The notes under the pieces are model-generated. The model was not told the origin of the DNA, did no database searches, and saw only the letters and a program-made list of their open reading frames with translations. The position numbers and the translations under genes were made by a program. Source: Nannocystis bainbridge (GTDB lineage: Bacteria > Myxococcota_A > Polyangia > Nannocystales > Nannocystaceae). From it: a stretch of 64,000 bases of DNA. Where the stretch lies: the NCBI RefSeq assembly GCF_028368995.1, contig NZ_JAQNDL010000001.1, forward strand, positions 3,808,001 to 3,872,000. The letters are read 5' to 3'. Position 1 is the first letter of the stretch. Every line of letters begins with the position of its first letter. Below are positions 851 to 58,908 of the stretch, one piece after another.

Positions 851-883
851 GCATGTCCGATGCGACATGTCCCATCGGACATC
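851..883. repeat. 14-bp-phased TGTC-N6-GACA array
   Basis: TGTC at 854 and 868, GACA at 864 and 878. Confidence 0.75.
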
Positions 884-937
884 GCGGTCGACCTGCGCAT
901 CAGGAATGATCCCCCGGCGCACCCCGCCGAGCTGACC

Positions 938-1122
938 GCCGCGACCACGCCCTCGTCGTCGCCCGCCTCCCGCTCGTCGCGCCACGACAACGCCCTCGTC
1001 GTCGCCCGCCTCCTGCTCGTCGCGCCGCGCCGACCCCTCGTCGTCGCCAGGCTCCCGCTCGTCGCGCCGCGACGACGCCCTCGTCGTCGCCAGCCTCCCG
1101 CTCGTCGCGCCGGGACGAACGC
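938..1122. repeat. About 4 tandem copies of a 42-43 bp repeat
   Basis: CCTCGTCGTCGCC starts at 951, 994, 1036, 1079. Confidence 0.85.
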
Positions 1123-1433
1123 CTCGTCTCGCCGGAACGAACGCCGAACTTTTCGCGAGAAAGCGTCTGTTCGGCGGCCAGCCCTGGCCGACGAACAGGC
1201 GCCGCCGATCGCCGCCTGGGCGTCCCTCGCAGCGGAGCCGAGGACGGCGGTCGGGCCTCTCACGGCTGCAGCCGTGCTCGGGGTTCGGGGGAGGGTCGGC
1301 GACGAATACGAGACAGGATGGCCGCGAGGAACGAGCGTCCATCCAGACGCTGAACTCGTCGCCGACCCTCCCCCGGACCCCTTGCGAGGCGCAGTCGGCA
1401 ATATGCGAAGCAGCCTGCCCCCCTCGAGCGAGC

Positions 1434-2345
1434 TCAGTAGGGACTGGGCATCTCGCTCTTGCGGTCCGCCCCCGCCACCGACCGCTCGATGTACTCGATG
1501 ATCGAGTCCGCCACATCGATCTCGGTCGTCCGCTCGATCCCCTCGAGCCCTGGCGAAGAGTTCACCTCGAGCACCACCGGACCGCGGCGGCTGCGGAGGA
1601 TATCGACCCCTGCCACCTTCAGTCCCAGGATCGCGGCGGCGCGGACCGCCGTCGAGCGTTCCTTCGGCGTCAGCTTGATCTTCGTCGCCTTCCCGCCGCG
1701 GTGGAGGTTCGAGCGGAACTCGCCTGGTGCGCCCTGGCGCTTCATCGCTGCCACCACCCGGTTGCCGATCACGAACGCCCGGATGTCCGCGCCTTCGGCT
1801 TCCTTCACGAACTCCTGGACCAGGATGTTCACGTCGAGCCCGCGGAACGCCTCGATCACGCTGCGAGCGGCTGCCGGCGTATCGGCCAGCACCACCCCGA
1901 TCCCTTGCGTCCCCTCGAGCATCTTCACCACCACTGGTGGTCCGCCGATCACCTCGAGCAGGCCCTCGATGTCCTTGATCGAGTGGCCGAACCCCGTGAT
2001 CGGCAGCCCGATGCCTTTCGCCGCCAGGATCTGCATCGTCCGCAGCTTGTCGCGCGAGCGCGAGATCGCCTGCGAGCGGTTCGGCGTGAACACCCCCATC
2101 ATCTCGAACTGGCGGACCACCGCCGTCCCGTAGAACGTATTGGAAGCCCCGATCCGCGGGATGATCGCGTCGACATCGCGCAGGTCTTCGCCGTGGTAGA
2201 CCACGTGGGGTCGGCTCGACGTGATGTTCATGTAGCAGCGCAGGTAGTCGACCACCTGCACCTCGTGCCCGCGATGCTCGGCCGCCTCGCGCAGGCGGCT
2301 GGTCGAGTACAGCGACCCGTCACGCGACAAGATCGCGATCTTCAC
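1434..2345 (-). CDS. rimK: RimK family alpha-L-glutamate ligase (ATP-grasp)
   Basis: [55 protein letters not shown] start at 2345 overlaps upstream stop. Confidence 0.95.
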
Positions 2346-2812
2346 GACACCCTCCGCAGCTTGTGACCGCAGCAGAAGCTCCGCTGTGGGTCGACGAGGA
2401 AGCGCCCGCGCACGGCTTCGCGTCCGAGCAGCATACGAAAGCCGAGCAGCGCTCGGTTGGACAGCGTCAGCTCCACGTCGAACTCGAGCGAGCCGACGCG
2501 GATCGGCGTCTGCACCACGGGTCGCAGCTCGCTGTGGCCGCCGGAGGTCCGGACCACGCGCTCGTCGACCATCATCGCCTCCGACACCACGGCGTCGCCG
2601 TCGTGGTTCTGATGCGGATGGACGCGGAAGCGGACCCTCGCGTTCGGCAGCTTTTCGACGCCAAACGCGTGCAGAGCGGAGGTACGGGCCCCGGTATCGA
2701 CCTTGACCTTGAGCGCGCCGATCCCCAGATCGGGCAACGCCACCCACTCGCGCCAACCGAGCACCACCAGGGCATCGACCCCGAGCGTCGTCATCACCAC
2801 CACTCGCTTCAC
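2342..2812 (-). CDS. RimK-associated putative ATP-dependent zinc protease (retropepsin-like)
   Basis: [26 protein letters not shown] motifs; coupled to rimK; start approximate. Confidence 0.9.
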
Positions 2813-2949
2813 CTCGTCGGCGCGTGCGCCAGGGCTAACGCTTGCCGAACTCGATGATACGGTCAAGCACACGCCCCCCGGCGCGACCGTAGCGCGCTGC
2901 GGGGGGCGTGCGACCTCACGCTTTTTGGTGAGGTGGTGACTGTGTCTGC

Positions 2950-56527: not shown

Positions 56528-56742
56528 GCGGCGCGCCGCAGGTGTTCGACCTGTCCGAGGTCGACGCCGACGCGCCCGAGGTCGTGCTCGCGTGGGTCGA
56601 GCGCCTGCGCGCCGCCGCGGCCCACGGCCCGGTGATCGTCCGCGAGTGCCCGCAGATGCTCGCCCACACGCTTTATAAATGTGCCCTGCTCGGCGACGCG
56701 ATCGTGCTCGAGTCGGTGCGCGCCGAAGAAGCCTACGGCTGA
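56524..56742 (+). CDS. Small hypothetical protein (possibly STAS-like)
   Basis: GTGA overlap with upstream stop; FDLSEVD, CPQMLAHTLYK. Confidence 0.6.
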   Translation: MSGAPQVFDLSEVDADAPEVVLAWVERLRAAAAHGPVIVRECPQMLAHTLYKCALLGDAIVLESVRAEEAYG

Positions 56743-56919
56743 GCGACTCTAGCGTCGCGACGCGGACGGCTACGGTTCAGCGACGGCCGCGCCGGCGGCA
56801 GGCCTCGGCGCGCCGGCTCGCACGACCCCGTCGATCGGCCGCGAGTTTCAGCCCTCGCGCTCGCCCGCCCGCTTCGCGCCCGCGAGCGCGGCCGACTCGC
56901 CATGCTACGCTGCCCTTCG

Positions 56920-57687
56920 ATGTCCTCCGCAGCGCGCGCCTTCGCCAGAGCCCACGACCACGTCCAGGTCACGCGGCGGGCCCGCGGCGCCCTGTTCGCC
57001 AGCGCCGCGATCACCCTCCTGCTCTACCTGGTCCCGTTCGGCGGCCTGCTCATCTATCCGCTGCTGCTGCTGTCGACCCTGGCCCACGAGCTCGGCCACG
57101 GCCTGGCCGCGCTCGCCACCGGCGGCACGTTCCATGCCTTCTACTTGTGGCCGGACGGTTCGGGCATGGCTGTTCATTCCGGTCCCGAAGGACATGTCCT
57201 TCAGGCCATCGTCGCCGCCGGCGGGCTGATCGGTCCGGCGATCGTCGCGGGCCTGTGCTTCGCCCTCGCGCGCCGGCCCGCCGTCGCCCGCGTGGTGCTC
57301 GGCCTGCTCGGGCTCGGCTTCCTGGCCGCCGTCGCGCTCGTCGTCGAGAACCCGTTCGGCTTCTGGTACATCAGCGGCGTCGGCCTGCTGCTGCTGGCCC
57401 TCGCCGCCCGCGCCAGCGCCACCACGGCCCAGACCGCGCTGGTCTTCGTCGCGGTGCAGCTGGCCCTCAGCGTGTTCTCCCGCGCCGATTACCTGTTCAC
57501 CGCCAGCGCCCAGACCTCGGCGGGCGTGATGCCGTCCGACTCGGCCCACATCGCCGCCGCGCTCGGCGGCTCCTACCTGCTGTGGGGCGCCGTCTGCGGG
57601 CTGTTCTCGGTCCTGGTCCTGGTCCTCGGCCTGTGGCTGTTCACCCGCGGCGAGAGCCGCGTCAGCCTGGCCAACCTCCGCCGGTGA
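56920..57687 (+). CDS. Peptidase M50-like membrane metalloprotease
   Basis: TLAHELGH, AAGG.IGP, SD motif; multi-TM. Confidence 0.85.
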   Translation: MSSAARAFARAHDHVQVTRRARGALFASAAITLLLYLVPFGGLLIYPLLLLSTLAHELGHGLAALATGGTFHAFYLWPDGSGMAVHSGPEGHVLQAIVAAGGLIGPAIVAGLCFALARRPAVARVVLGLLGLGFLAAVALVVENPFGFWYISGVGLLLLALAARASATTAQTALVFVAVQLALSVFSRADYLFTASAQTSAGVMPSDSAHIAAALGGSYLLWGAVCGLFSVLVLVLGLWLFTRGESRVSLANLRR

Positions 57688-57690
57688 TCC

Positions 57691-58836
57691 GTGACCCCCG
57701 AGCTGCGCGCGCTGGCCTCCCGCGCCCTGGCGATCGAGCATGTCCCTGAGGACATGCTCTTATGGACATGTCTTAAAATTCATGTGATGTGCGCGGCGGT
57801 CTGGCGCGTCGACTCCCCCGCGGGCGCGATCGTCCTCAAGCAGCACCGCCACCCGCGCCCGTTCGCGCAGGAGCTGCAGGCCTATCGCGACTGGCTGCCG
57901 GGCCTGCTCGACGCGCGGGACGCTCCTCACCTCCGCGGTCCGTCGGACTCGCAGCAGCCTCACCACCGCGGTCCGTCGGACTCGCAGCAGCCTCACCTCC
58001 GCGGTCCGTCGGACTCGCAGCAGCCTCACCTCCGCGGTCCGTCGGACTCGCAGCACCCTCACCTCCGCGGTCCGTCGGGCCCGCAGGAGCCTCACCTCCG
58101 CAGTTCATCGGACTCGCACAGTCCCCTCCTCGGCCTGCCGGAGCCGCTTCCTCCCGCGCCCGCGCGTGAACCTGGCGTGCATGACCTGCTCGCCGTTCGT
58201 GTCCCCGCGCTGCTCGCCAGCGATCGCCGCAGCCTGGGCCTCGCGCTGTCCGCCGCGCCCGGCGAGCGCCTGTATCTCGGGACACATGATTCTCCCTCGA
58301 CCCTCGCCGCCCACGCGGCCGCGGGCCGGTTCCTCCGCGCCCTTCACCAGCTCCCCGCCGTCGACGACGATCCCATCCCGCTCGTCGCCGCCGTCGCCGC
58401 GCGCCTCGACGCCTGGCACGCCCGCGCCCGCGACATCCTGAGCCCGGCCGAGCGCGACGCGCTGCAGCGGCTCGCCGCCCGCCGAGACGCCTTTGCCGGC
58501 GTGCGCCGCGTGCCCTGTCATCGCGACTTCACCCCCGACAACTGGTTGCTCGCCGGCGATGCCCTGCACGTCCTCGACTTCGAGCACGCCCGCCTCGACG
58601 CCGCCGAGGCCGACCTCGTCAAGCTCTGCGCCGACACCTGGGCCGAGAACCCTGCGCTCGCCGAGGCCTTCCTCGCCGGTCACGGATCGCTGGACACCGA
58701 CGCCGCCGCCCGCCTCGACGTCCTGCTCGCCCTGCACGCGGTGGCCACCCTGGCCTGGGCCGAACGCCACGCCGACCCGGACTTCCACGCGCTCGGCCGC
58801 CGCGCCCTGGCCGTCGCGCTCGACCGTGTCACTTGA
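57691..58836 (+). CDS. Aminoglycoside phosphotransferase/choline kinase family protein
   Basis: IVLK, CHRDFTPDNWL, LDFEHA. Confidence 0.85.
   Translation: MTPELRALASRALAIEHVPEDMLLWTCLKIHVMCAAVWRVDSPAGAIVLKQHRHPRPFAQELQAYRDWLPGLLDARDAPHLRGPSDSQQPHHRGPSDSQQPHLRGPSDSQQPHLRGPSDSQHPHLRGPSGPQEPHLRSSSDSHSPLLGLPEPLPPAPAREPGVHDLLAVRVPALLASDRRSLGLALSAAPGERLYLGTHDSPSTLAAHAAAGRFLRALHQLPAVDDDPIPLVAAVAARLDAWHARARDILSPAERDALQRLAARRDAFAGVRRVPCHRDFTPDNWLLAGDALHVLDFEHARLDAAEADLVKLCADTWAENPALAEAFLAGHGSLDTDAAARLDVLLALHAVATLAWAERHADPDFHALGRRALAVALDRVT
57925..58122 (+). repeat. Six in-frame 33-bp tandem repeats (PHLRGPSDSQQ)
   Basis: CCTCAC at 57925, 57958, 57991, 58024, 58057, 58090. Confidence 0.95.
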
Positions 58837-58908
58837 GACATGTCCCTCGAGACACCTTATGGCGATCTTTGGACATGCCCGTACGGACATGCCCCGGAAG
58901 ACATCCCC
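58827..58908. repeat. 14-bp-phased GACATG arrays between convergent genes
   Basis: GACA at 58837/58851 and 58872/58886/58900. Confidence 0.8.

What the first reader, a model, noticed from the sequence alone, without database searches (positions are those of the whole stretch)
851..58908. Dispersed 14-bp palindrome TGTC-N6-GACA forming 14-bp-phased arrays across the window
Seen: about 20 arrays of 2-7 degenerate units with near-strict 14-bp spacing, e.g. 854, 8274-8330, 9555-9583, 12034, 14870, 20826, 28286-28343, 30050, 30975-31045, 32083-32125, 34064-34134, 36067, 38348, 38964-39020, 42047-42075, 49896, 55118-55188, 57739-57781 and 58837-58900. Many single copies also occur (about 4845, 6932, 7022, 14154, 16784, 40175, 45640, 48752, 48792). 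Units abut to give GGACATGTCC. Spacers vary freely while phase is kept, which fits selection on spacing better than recent slippage. Several long arrays sit between convergent genes. Three units = 42 bp, about 4 helical turns and 14 codons. Inference: a lineage-specific chromosomal code, such as sites for a cooperatively binding dimeric nucleoid or organiser protein (matS/parS/HIP1-like), a methylation or uptake signal, or a REP-like element. I do not recognise it as described.
Basis: partly seen in the sequence, partly recalled or inferred. Interest (0 to 1): 0.8.

Follow-up and report, generated by a model that had tools for sequence, protein, structure and literature searches.

The report
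Phased palindrome arrays at gene ends
This myxobacterial genome carries thousands of copies of a 14-letter mirror-symmetric DNA word, stacked in exact register right behind genes and also kept inside genes, which points to an unidentified factor that reads it and matches no described repeat family.

Summary
TGTC-N6-GACA occurs 41 times in the window against 0.7 expected, and 3,663 times in the 11-Mb genome against 29-155 for other spacings. The unit is TG-YCC-N4-GGR-CA. Units abut at CATG in strict 14-bp phase: neighbouring strict units start 14 bp apart 811 times and 13 or 15 bp apart 0 times.

Elements sit at gene ends. They occupy 776 of 1,310 convergent gaps, often touch the stop codon, and are phased to it. 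They are also 15-29 times enriched inside genes through codon choice and are kept there by selection.

The arms show no covariation and the centre length is rigid. No RAYT gene was found.

Arrays occur at low copy in other genera of the same family. They were found in 0 of 150 other genomes of the phylum.

My best reading is a box for an unknown symmetric sequence-specific factor that marks transcription-unit ends (confidence 0.4). An RNA-hairpin reading keeps some support from a sense-strand G·U bias.

This scan reported the same motif twice before on other pieces of this genome. I found no description in print.

The parts
840..881 (.). array, 3 units, convergent gap
8276..8331 (.). array, 4 units, convergent gap, 35 nt after the QueG-like gene's stop
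9180..9207 (.). array, 2 units, overlaps the 3' end of ORF 9184-12384(-)
9555..9596 (.). array, 3 units, inside a long ORF call with no Pfam hit (coding status doubtful)
11069..11110 (.). array, 3 units, inside the same doubtful ORF call
12023..12064 (.). array, 3 units, inside the same doubtful ORF call
14870..14897 (.). array, 2 units, 13 nt after the stop of 14911-15384(-)
20815..20856 (.). array, 3 units, convergent gap, 17 nt after a stop
24462..24489 (.). array, 2 units, 61 nt inside the 5' end of a gene call
28286..28356 (.). two overlapping 3-unit chains in different registers, at the stop of 28354-29325(-)
30036..30077 (.). array, 3 units, inside ORF call 29376-31841(+) with no Pfam hit
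30975..31044 (.). array, 5 units; the last CATG is followed by an open frame (ATG TCT CCC...)
31832..31859 (.). array, 2 units, overlaps a stop codon
32074..32143 (.). array, 5 units, abuts the stop of 32144-32950(-); contains a 28-bp duplication
34066..34135 (.). array, 5 units, 2 nt from the stop of the Hsp70-family gene 34138-36018(-)
38348..38375 (.). array, 2 units, between the two methylmalonyl-CoA mutase genes
38952..39021 (.). array, 5 units, phase conserved in 4 relatives; its last CATG supplies a likely start codon on the minus strand
39837..39878 (.). 3 weak units inside the mutase small-subunit domain (true coding, H-V-x-x-D-M)
42049..42090 (.). array, 3 units, 2 nt after a stop
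49896..49923 (.). array, 2 exact units, conserved in 5 relatives
55106..55203 (.). array, 7 units, 4 nt after the stop of 52267-55101(+); an array follows this stop in all 6 species
57181..57208 (.). 2 units inside the Peptidase_M50B-like gene
57741..57782 (.). array, 3 units, 53 nt after a stop; alignable in 5 relatives
58827..58854 (.). array, 2 units, overlaps a stop codon
58876..58917 (.). array, 3 units, 8 nt from the stop of 58926-59783(-)
4845..4858 (.). single exact box
6932..6945 (.). single exact box
7022..7035 (.). single exact box, upstream of the QueG-like domain
7061..7074 (.). single exact box
7754..7767 (.). single exact box inside the QueG-like 4Fe-4S domain; outer TGT and GACA unchanged in 5 relatives, C3 changed in one, centre varies
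10389..10402 (.). single exact box, conserved in 5 relatives
11907..11920 (.). single exact box, conserved in 5 relatives
14153..14166 (.). single exact box in coding sequence (3-periodic substitutions on both sides)
16784..16797 (.). single exact box, intergenic
19246..19454 (.). four exact boxes (19246, 19301, 19372, 19441) inside a duplicated 5' leader; two lie about 7 nt before AGGAGG-N4-ATG
25830..25843 (.). single exact box inside a VWA-domain gene (Y-V-P-K-D-I)
36070..36083 (.). single box with 9-bp arms; arms conserved and centre different in each relative
40176..40189 (.). single exact box inside the mutase small-subunit gene
45640..45653 (.). single exact box; arms conserved apart from one A-to-C change in G003, centre changed
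48753..48805 (.). two exact boxes (48753, 48792), intergenic
51601..51614 (.). single exact box
53736..53749 (.). single exact box in a highly conserved coding stretch

Best explanation
The unit is a 14-bp two-fold symmetric box, TG-YCC-N4-GGR-CA (best form TGTCC-N4-GGACA). I read it as the site of an unidentified sequence-specific factor that binds as a symmetric pair, most likely on duplex DNA. Single boxes are scattered over the whole chromosome, including inside genes, where selection on codon choice keeps them. At gene ends the boxes are stacked with zero gap, so that CA|TG junctions form CATG every 14 bp. They start at or on the stop codon and fill most gaps between convergent genes. Bound factors would then sit side by side and mark the end of the transcription unit from both directions, as a barrier to read-through or to supercoil spread. 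Shown here: enrichment, exact phase, fixed half-site distance, base-specific conservation, selection inside genes, gene-end position, register with the stop codon, and restriction to one family with expansion in one clade. Inferred: that a protein reads the box, that it reads DNA rather than RNA, and that the effect is termination or insulation.
For: Fixed geometry: TG-YYY-N(k)-RRR-CA gives 5,521 copies at k=4, against 625 at k=3 and 413 at k=5. In intergenic DNA the counts are 3,691 against 127 and 76. Unit starts are 14, 28 and 42 bp apart 811, 483 and 330 times; distances 13, 15, 27, 29, 41 and 43 give 0, 0, 20, 4, 12 and 9. Base-specific reading: changing T0, G1, C12 or A13 removes the enrichment inside genes (0.56-1.70 times the synonymous-shuffle null, against 15.8 times for the motif). 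Position 2 tolerates any base (3.0-5.4 times). At position 3 the left arm tolerates A or T but not G (13.9, 8.9 and 0.95 times); the mirrored right-arm changes at position 10 give weaker contrasts (4.1, 2.0 and 1.4 times). No pairing signal: the two arms of a unit are complementary no more often than independence predicts (mirrored-position MI at most 0.02; flanks). Mirrored units within an array are complementary no more often than units from different arrays (0.46-0.55 against 0.53). Selection: among five relatives, pairwise divergence at T0, G1, C12 and A13 is 0.051, 0.009, 0.044 and 0.058, against 0.21-0.37 in the centre and 0.146 at third codon positions. Against G005, T0 at a third codon position is kept in 17 of 17 intragenic sites, where 30.0% of 1,520 third-position T's are kept; A13 is kept in 10 of 10, where the baseline is 37.5% of 846. 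Intragenic enrichment depends on codon choice: 1,024 observed against 66.6 +/- 9.7 after synonymous shuffling. Position: 776 of 1,310 convergent, 951 of 3,680 tandem and 220 of 1,460 divergent gaps carry an element. In tandem gaps the median distance is 51 nt to the upstream stop and 217 nt to the next start. In 830 convergent-gap arrays the nearer stop is within 10 nt in 60%. First-unit offsets from the stop peak at +11, +25, +39, +53 (81, 42, 27, 14) and at +2, +16, +30 (71, 47, 19). The same gene ends carry arrays in all six species compared, even where the downstream DNA differs.
Against: No reader protein is identified and no binding or expression data exist. Behind genes, arm mismatches of the G·U-compatible type outnumber the C·A type on the upstream gene's sense strand: 748 against 577 in tandem gaps, and 376 against 258 near stops in convergent gaps. 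Flanking DNA shows almost no skew (GC skew -0.023, T-A skew +0.034). This favours some pairing constraint in RNA or in the non-template strand. Each array would fold into one or two 9-10-bp hairpins as RNA (z -1.9 to -4.3). The gene map is home-made, and some 'coding' arrays are probably gaps between genes. Exact phase could come partly from unit-wise slippage at the shared junction rather than from side-by-side binding.
Confidence: 0.4

Rival explanations
1. RNA reading: the arrays are transcribed with the upstream gene and act as hairpins that end or stabilise the transcript, alone or with a factor that binds the stem. This is how REP elements and the mycobacterial TRIT motif are thought to act. 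Because the units are palindromes, the arrays would work for both convergent genes.
For: Gene-end position on or next to the stop codon. Predicted hairpins of -14.8 to -40.7 kcal/mol with z -1.9 to -4.3. Sense-strand excess of G·U-type over C·A-type arm mismatches, z 4.7 in tandem gaps and z 4.7 for the two convergent sets combined, absent in divergent gaps and inside genes, with no matching skew in flanking DNA. Canonical hairpin-plus-T-run terminators are not enriched in 28,000-47,999 (6 found, 4.0 +/- 2.1 in shuffles). TRIT is likewise palindromic, lineage-restricted and tightly placed at stops (passages read, PMC3152330).
Against: No arm covariation within units, in flanks or across arrays. 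Variants that break a pair at position 2 or 3 stay 3-14 times enriched. Centre length is rigid, unlike hairpin loops. There is no orientation preference for GNRA or UNCG loops (99 against 88, 105 against 104). Single boxes are 15-29 times enriched and conserved inside genes, where a terminator would be harmful. The G·U excess is only 1.3-1.5-fold.
Confidence: 0.25
2. Molecular drive: the box is a hyper-abundant 'self' word. It would spread and be kept by a biased process such as preferential DNA uptake and recombination, or methylation-linked repair, as discussed for USS/DUS and for cyanobacterial HIP1. Arrays would pile up at gene ends because only there are they tolerated.
For: Even spread over all contigs. 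Strong enrichment and conservation inside genes through codon choice. Fewer elements behind genes with atypical codon usage (23% in the lowest quintile against 33% in the upper three). HIP1 is described as 15- to 300-fold over-represented (abstracts seen in the listing).
Against: A drive does not predict zero-gap stacking, register with the stop codon, or presence in 59% of convergent gaps. One-letter variants at the essential positions are not depleted (ratios 0.56-1.70), as conversion toward the motif would predict. No C5 methyltransferase was found. The single D12-class methyltransferase is present in 40 of 41 family genomes and in 34 of 120 genomes of other families, a group in which no arrays were found.
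Confidence: 0.15
3. Mobile repeat: a REP/REPIN- or MITE-like element copied around the genome by a transposase.
For: Thousands of copies, clusters outside genes, and unit number that differs between species at the same locus. About 3% of neighbouring units are near-identical, and one array holds a 28-bp duplication.
Against: No Y1/RAYT transposase match (PF01797) in the genome, which is 90.5% complete, while the control genomes gave matches. The three intragenic copies examined in the mutase gene (38994, 39851, 40176) show no insertion at the box relative to orthologues. Positions are orthologous across six species. A 14-bp unit has no room for terminal repeats.
Confidence: 0.08

Closest known systems
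REP / BIME elements of enterobacteria and pseudomonads (with RAYT transposases)
   Same: Abundant short palindromes, clustered in regular arrays, mostly behind genes and between convergent genes. BIMEs are described as binding sites for several proteins (abstract of PMC2817692 seen in the listing).
   Different: No RAYT gene. Units are self-symmetric and abut with zero spacer, rather than alternating orientations with linkers. There is no stem covariation. About 1,000 copies lie inside genes under selection.
TRIT, the mycobacterial 'Tuberculosis Rho-independent terminator' motif (PMC3152330)
   Same: Lineage-restricted, palindromic and therefore bidirectional, with a conserved sequence and a narrow placement at the stop codon. 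Its authors suggest a factor that reads the motif (passages read).
   Different: TRIT is a single longer hairpin with conserved structure and 147 copies. Here the unit is 14 bp, stacked in phase in 2-12 copies, about 5,500 strict units in all, without structure covariation, and also intragenic.
HIP1 (GCGATCGC) of cyanobacteria
   Same: A short palindrome hyper-abundant in coding and non-coding DNA and maintained by selection; its function was long unknown (abstracts seen in the listing).
   Different: HIP1 is tied to orphan methyltransferases (abstract of PMC4390886). No such tie was found here. As far as I recall, HIP1 does not form abutting arrays or sit at stop codons; I did not check this.
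Tandem palindromic operator arrays (MetJ met-boxes; PadR-type ATGT-N8-ACAT operators)
   Same: Met-boxes are abutting palindromic boxes that each bind one dimer, with side-by-side cooperativity (recalled, not checked). Two abutted units read ATGT-N8-ACAT, the PadR/LmrR consensus (passages read, PMC4517056).
   Different: Those are a few promoter sites per genome, not thousands at gene ends. Position 2 of the box (the second T of ATGT) tolerates any base here. No PadR protein was tested.
DNA uptake sequences (USS/DUS) of Pasteurellaceae and Neisseriaceae
   Different: USS/DUS are asymmetric 9-12-mers without phased stacking. Uptake was not tested here.

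Membership tests
REP/BIME (RAYT-mobilised) | A RAYT (Y1 transposase, PF01797) gene in the genome, typically flanked by the repeats | tested here: not met
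   0 matches in G000 (90.5% complete); the same search hit 6 of 14 control genomes
REP/BIME (RAYT-mobilised) | Restricted to extragenic DNA | tested here: not met
   1,024 exact boxes in the interiors of 5,942 confident CDS, against 35-67 expected
REP/BIME (RAYT-mobilised) | Imperfect palindrome whose stem is maintained | tested here: not met
   Arm complementarity equals the independence expectation and the between-array null
Intrinsic terminator / TRIT-like hairpin | Placement at gene 3' ends close to the stop | tested here: met
   Median 51 nt from the stop in tandem gaps; 60% of 830 convergent-gap arrays within 10 nt; register peaks
Intrinsic terminator / TRIT-like hairpin | Conserved secondary structure (compensatory changes), loop free to vary in length | tested here: not met
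   No covariation; k=4 centre 5,521 against 625 (k=3) and 413 (k=5)
Intrinsic terminator / TRIT-like hairpin | Strand-specific G·U tolerance on the transcribed strand | tested here: inconclusive
   748 against 577 (tandem) and 376 against 258 (convergent, near stops), only 1.3-1.5-fold; absent inside genes
Intrinsic terminator / TRIT-like hairpin | T-run after the hairpin (canonical type) | tested here: not met
   In 28,000-47,999 the scan found 6 sites (4.0 +/- 2.1 in shuffles); one (30094-30075) overlaps an array
HIP1-type iterated palindrome | Hyper-abundance in coding and non-coding DNA, maintained by selection | tested here: met
HIP1-type iterated palindrome | Cognate orphan methyltransferase co-distributed with the motif | tested here: not met
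   No C5 methyltransferase. The single D12-class enzyme is in 40 of 41 family genomes and in 34 of 120 genomes of other families, a group in which no arrays were found. The specificities of the N6_N4 enzymes (12 matches) are unknown.
matS/parS-type regional organiser sites | Sites confined to one chromosomal region (ter or ori) | tested here: not met
   26-105 sites per full 200-kb bin on all five contigs
PadR-type operator (ATGT-N8-ACAT) | Match to the consensus and binding by a PadR-family dimer | tested here: inconclusive
   Abutted units fit the consensus, but position 2 is tolerant and 37% of exact sites have C, not A, before TGT. Binding is not testable here.
Uptake signal sequence (USS/DUS) | Preferential uptake of DNA carrying the word | not testable with these tools
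   Needs transformation assays
Any Rfam family | Match at the gathering score | tested here: not met
   Only YrlA and a tRNA-like match in the window, neither on an array

The most novel reading that the evidence does not exclude
A family-specific factor reads the 14-bp box and lines up in strict register on arrays that begin on the stop codon. This would form protein-based, two-way ends of transcription units, a bacterial counterpart of mTERF or the TTF-I Sal-box arrays of eukaryotic rDNA. In one myxobacterial clade these would have largely replaced hairpin terminators, while about a thousand single boxes inside genes serve a second, chromosome-wide role of the same factor.
Probability: 0.2. 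Interest if true: 0.85.

Novelty: new variant of a known kind. Interest (0 to 1): 0.72.

Why it matters
If a dedicated factor reads these boxes, one clade of large-genome myxobacteria marks most of its gene ends with a sequence-specific, symmetric, stackable signal. That would be a mode of transcription-unit demarcation not described in bacteria. The case is unusually testable, because the rules are already sharp: essential TG and CA, a fixed 10-bp interval, and zero-gap stacking. Simple spacing and arm-swap mutants would separate a DNA-protein reading from an RNA-hairpin reading. The boxes also matter for annotation of these genomes: they flag gene ends, and they run through open frames in high-GC DNA, which causes fused gene calls. 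Finally, low-copy arrays in sister genera against thousands in one clade offer a natural series for studying how such a signal spreads.

Tried and rejected
- RAYT/Y1 transposase: none found.
- Rfam: no family on any array.
- Regional (ori/ter) distribution: none.
- Hairpin covariation within units, in flanks, and as long mirrored pairing across arrays: none.
- Tetraloop orientation (GNRA, UNCG): none.
- Recent slippage as the main source of arrays: only 2.6-4.4% of unit pairs within an array are near-identical.
- Conversion from one-letter variants: no depletion.
- Methyltransferase link: there is no C5 enzyme, and the conserved D12-class enzyme is not co-distributed with the arrays.
- Regulon idea: among the 20 low-copy array loci looked at in three g2 genomes and one g4 genome (G049), several arrays sit just upstream of IgGFc_binding, DUF4215 and FG-GAP genes. 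In G000 only 5 of 18 IgGFc_binding genes have an upstream element, mostly more than 100 nt away, against a baseline of 864 of 6,001. No conserved regulon emerged, and no reader gene was found this way.
- RNA data: the run search returned only metagenome runs holding 6-14% of the sampled words, kept as contigs. I did not lay them, so there is no evidence on expression.
- Expression proxy: the link between codon score and a downstream element is weak.
- Literature: the motif strings gave 0 papers. Nannocystis with 'palindrom' or 'repeat' gave nothing relevant in the listings. The N. exedens genome note has no relevant passage.
- PadR lead: formal resemblance only; not tested.

Full report
**The observation.** The window is G000:C1:3808001-3872000 of an 11,048,555-bp genome in five contigs, 71-72% G+C. 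TGTC-N6-GACA occurs 41 times in the window, against a mean of 0.70 in 100 dinucleotide shuffles (maximum 4). Genome-wide there are 3,663 copies with a 6-nt spacer and 29-155 with any other spacer from 0 to 14. Distances between successive exact sites peak at 14, 28, 42 and 56 (144, 88, 61 and 36).

The periodicity is carried by CATG, the junction of two abutting units. CATG pairs are 14, 28, 42 and 56 bp apart 3,736, 2,073, 1,586 and 751 times, against 62-476 for other distances from 4 to 60. In all, 2,066 chains of two or more phased CATGs exist, the longest with 12.

A symmetric weight matrix finds 26 arrays of 2-7 units and 45 single units in the window; the reversed sequence gives 8 singles and 0 arrays. 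In the genome it finds 3,080 arrays of two or more units, against 22 in the control.

**Anatomy.** I took 305 units that lie between two good units and so are not themselves selected by the search. They read T(.88) G(.93) Y C(.71) C(.73) N4 G(.68) R R C(.95) A(.88), and the centre is much richer in A+T than the genome. The outer TG and CA are therefore the anchor.

The geometry is rigid. TG-YYY-N(k)-RRR-CA gives 5,521 copies at k=4, 625 at k=3 and 413 at k=5. In intergenic DNA the counts are 3,691, 127 and 76. Unit starts are 14 bp apart 811 times, and 13 or 15 bp apart 0 times.

Neighbouring units are almost as different as random units. They share at least 9 of 10 inner letters in 2.6% of 1,670 pairs, against 0.3% of random pairs. 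The arrays are therefore not fresh slippage products.

**Is it a hairpin?** As RNA, each array would fold into one or two 9-10-bp hairpins (z -1.9 to -4.3). I found no sign that pairing is maintained:
- Mutual information between mirrored arm positions is at most 0.02, and Watson-Crick matches are near the independence expectation (1,807 against 1,612; 2,355 against 2,217; 2,126 against 2,103).
- Flanking positions give the same result.
- Mirrored units within an array are complementary no more often than units from different arrays.
- Inside genes, variants that break a pair at position 2 or 3 remain 3-14 times enriched, while changes of T0, G1, C12 or A13 remove the enrichment.
- GNRA and UNCG centres show no strand preference.

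One result points the other way. Behind genes, on the sense strand of the upstream gene, G·U-compatible arm mismatches outnumber C·A-type ones: 748 against 577 in tandem gaps. Near stops in convergent gaps the counts are 190 against 160 and 186 against 98. There is no excess in divergent gaps or inside genes. The flanking DNA shows almost no skew. The effect is modest, 1.3-1.5-fold, but statistically solid. I cannot explain it by base composition.

**Where the elements sit.** Gene calls come from my own codon-usage gene finder and are imperfect.
- Elements occupy 776 of 1,310 convergent gaps, 951 of 3,680 tandem gaps and 220 of 1,460 divergent gaps.
- In tandem gaps they lie a median of 51 nt from the upstream stop and 217 nt from the next start.
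- In 830 convergent-gap arrays the nearer stop is within 10 nt in 60%.
- The first unit's offset from the stop peaks at +11, +25, +39, +53 (81, 42, 27, 14) and at +2, +16, +30 (71, 47, 19). In the first series the TG of a TGA stop serves as the TG of a unit. In the second the stop sits in a right arm, read as TGACA.
- In the window, 17 of the 26 arrays lie between gene calls, and 13 of these are within 35 nt of a stop.
- Of the nine arrays inside calls, five fall in two long ORF calls with no Pfam match. One (38952-39021) lies between the mutase small-subunit domain and an ATG that opens the next frame.
- Canonical hairpin-plus-T-run terminators are not enriched in 28,000-47,999 (6 found, 4.0 +/- 2.1 in shuffles).
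- Density is even along all contigs.

**Inside genes.** In the interiors of 5,942 confident CDS (7.39 Mb) there are 1,024 exact boxes. Shuffling codon order gives 35.3 +/- 4.1, and shuffling synonymous codons gives 66.6 +/- 9.7. The excess therefore lies in codon choice, not in the proteins.

Real examples are the boxes in the QueG-like gene (7754), a VWA gene (25830) and the methylmalonyl-CoA mutase small subunit (39851, 40176). The three boxes examined in the mutase gene show no insertion at the box relative to orthologues; domain and substitution context for all of these come.

In 228,021 aligned bases between G000 and G005, a T at a third codon position is conserved in 30.0% of 1,520 cases and an A in 37.5% of 846. 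The T0 of boxes in the matching frame is conserved in 17 of 17 cases, and A13 in 10 of 10. Among five relatives, pairwise divergence is 0.009-0.058 at T0, G1, C12 and A13, 0.21-0.37 in the centre and 0.146 at third codon positions.

**Evolution.** The whole window is syntenic in five relatives at 88-90% identity. Single boxes and some arrays are orthologous, with the arms largely kept and the centres changed. Long arrays behind convergent genes are present at the same gene end in all six species but differ in unit number and sequence. They stay with the upstream gene even where 1.7-2 kb of downstream DNA differs.

**Distribution.**
- The 20-mer ACATGTCC-N4-GGACATGT occurs 142 times in G000. 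It is found in 9 of 10 other genomes of the genus (6-69 copies; the miss is 64% complete), 3 times in one sister genus, and 0 times in 19 further genera.
- Three phased CATGs occur 1,670 times in G000 and 1,162 times in G005, but only 24-27 times in two divergent genomes of the genus.
- In other genera of the family the count is 0-17, against 0-2 for the reversed control; 23 of 40 family genomes have at least one.
- In G056, 6 of 13 such arrays lie between convergent ORF ends.
- A stricter two-unit pattern was found in 0 of 150 genomes from other families of the phylum.

The element is therefore family-restricted among the genomes searched and greatly expanded in the large-genome clade of one genus. 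It is not strictly genus-specific, as earlier notes of this scan said.

Among the 20 low-copy loci I looked at in three g2 genomes and one g4 genome (G049), the arrays are A+T-rich. They often lie in divergent gaps or directly before gene starts, several times before IgGFc_binding, DUF4215 and FG-GAP genes. This does not carry over to G000.

**Reading.** The fixed half-site distance, base-specific conservation, two-fold symmetry, lack of covariation and selection inside genes fit recognition by a symmetric sequence-specific factor, most simply a dimer on duplex DNA. The gene-end stacking suggests a two-way end signal for transcription units. I hold this reading at 0.4.

The RNA-hairpin reading (0.25) keeps the position, the folding energies and the G·U bias. 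A drive of the USS or HIP1 kind (0.15) explains the intragenic copies but not the stacking. A mobile REP-like element (0.08) lacks its transposase.

There is no RAYT and no co-distributed methyltransferase. The fit of abutted units to the PadR operator consensus ATGT-N8-ACAT (passages read in PMC4517056) is only a lead.

**Known relatives and novelty.** The closest described things are REP/BIME, TRIT (passages read in PMC3152330) and HIP1 (abstracts in the listing). Each shares some features and fails others; see the membership table.

I found no paper containing the motif and none on Nannocystis repeats. Subscription journals and supplements were not searched.

Two earlier reports of this scan, on other pieces of this genome, described the same motif. 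They named the genus Nannocystis, which I did not verify. The 72% G+C of the N. exedens announcement (abstract) is merely consistent.

**Open points.**
- The array-length distribution has a bump at 5-6 units (220, 358 and 222 arrays of 4, 5 and 6 units).
- The sense-strand G·U bias is unexplained under the DNA reading.
- 343 arrays of three or more units fall inside my gene calls, and I could not check them one by one.

Noticed in passing
window 46060-48595 (-): A Ro60/Rsr-type gene (vWA_Ro60 and TROVE domains, 46970-48595) lies next to a YrlA Y-RNA-like gene (46060-46188, 74.5 bits). Between them is a 160-bp tandem repeat (46309-46726, 2.6 copies) that holds a weak tRNA-like Rfam match (46666-46813, 30.1 bits). 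ARAGORN calls no tRNA there.
   Followed up: partly
window 19197-19417: A 126-bp direct duplication (87% identity) repeats a 5' leader containing AGGAGG-N4-ATG and one palindrome box per half-unit. Four boxes lie between two co-directional genes.
   Followed up: partly
L052-L071 (G039, G048, G049, G055): In sister genera with few arrays, the arrays are A+T-rich and often lie in divergent gaps or directly before gene starts. Three precede IgGFc_binding genes, three DUF4215 genes, two FG-GAP genes and two phage-integrase genes. This is the opposite placement to the gene-end bias in G000.
   Followed up: partly
G000:C1:3591256-3592350 (L092): A single-copy D12-class N6-adenine DNA methyltransferase, outside the Dam subfamily by NCBIfam score. 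It is conserved at 51-95% identity in 40 of 41 family genomes and is present in 34 of 120 genomes of other families of the phylum. It looks like a conserved orphan enzyme of unknown specificity.
   Followed up: partly
genome-wide: Array length is not geometrically distributed. There are 1,521, 670, 220, 358, 222 and 65 arrays of 2, 3, 4, 5, 6 and 7 units, so arrays of 5-6 units (70-84 bp) form a class of their own.
   Followed up: no
window 9184-12384 (-) and 29376-31841 (+): Two very long open frames (1,066 and 821 aa) have no Pfam match and contain several arrays. They are probably several genes or gaps fused by the scarcity of stop codons in high-GC DNA, and arrays may mark the true gene boundaries.
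   Followed up: partly
window 937-1133: A 43/85-bp tandem repeat (4.6 or 2.3 copies, 87-88% matches) lies just downstream of the first array. It is unrelated in sequence to the 14-bp unit.
   Followed up: no
window 36271-40475 (-): A methylmalonyl-CoA mutase gene pair: the large subunit carries a B12-binding domain, and the small subunit follows. Palindrome boxes sit between and after the genes and are conserved in five relatives. In G001 the small-subunit gene carries a repetitive insertion of about 300 bp.
   Followed up: partly
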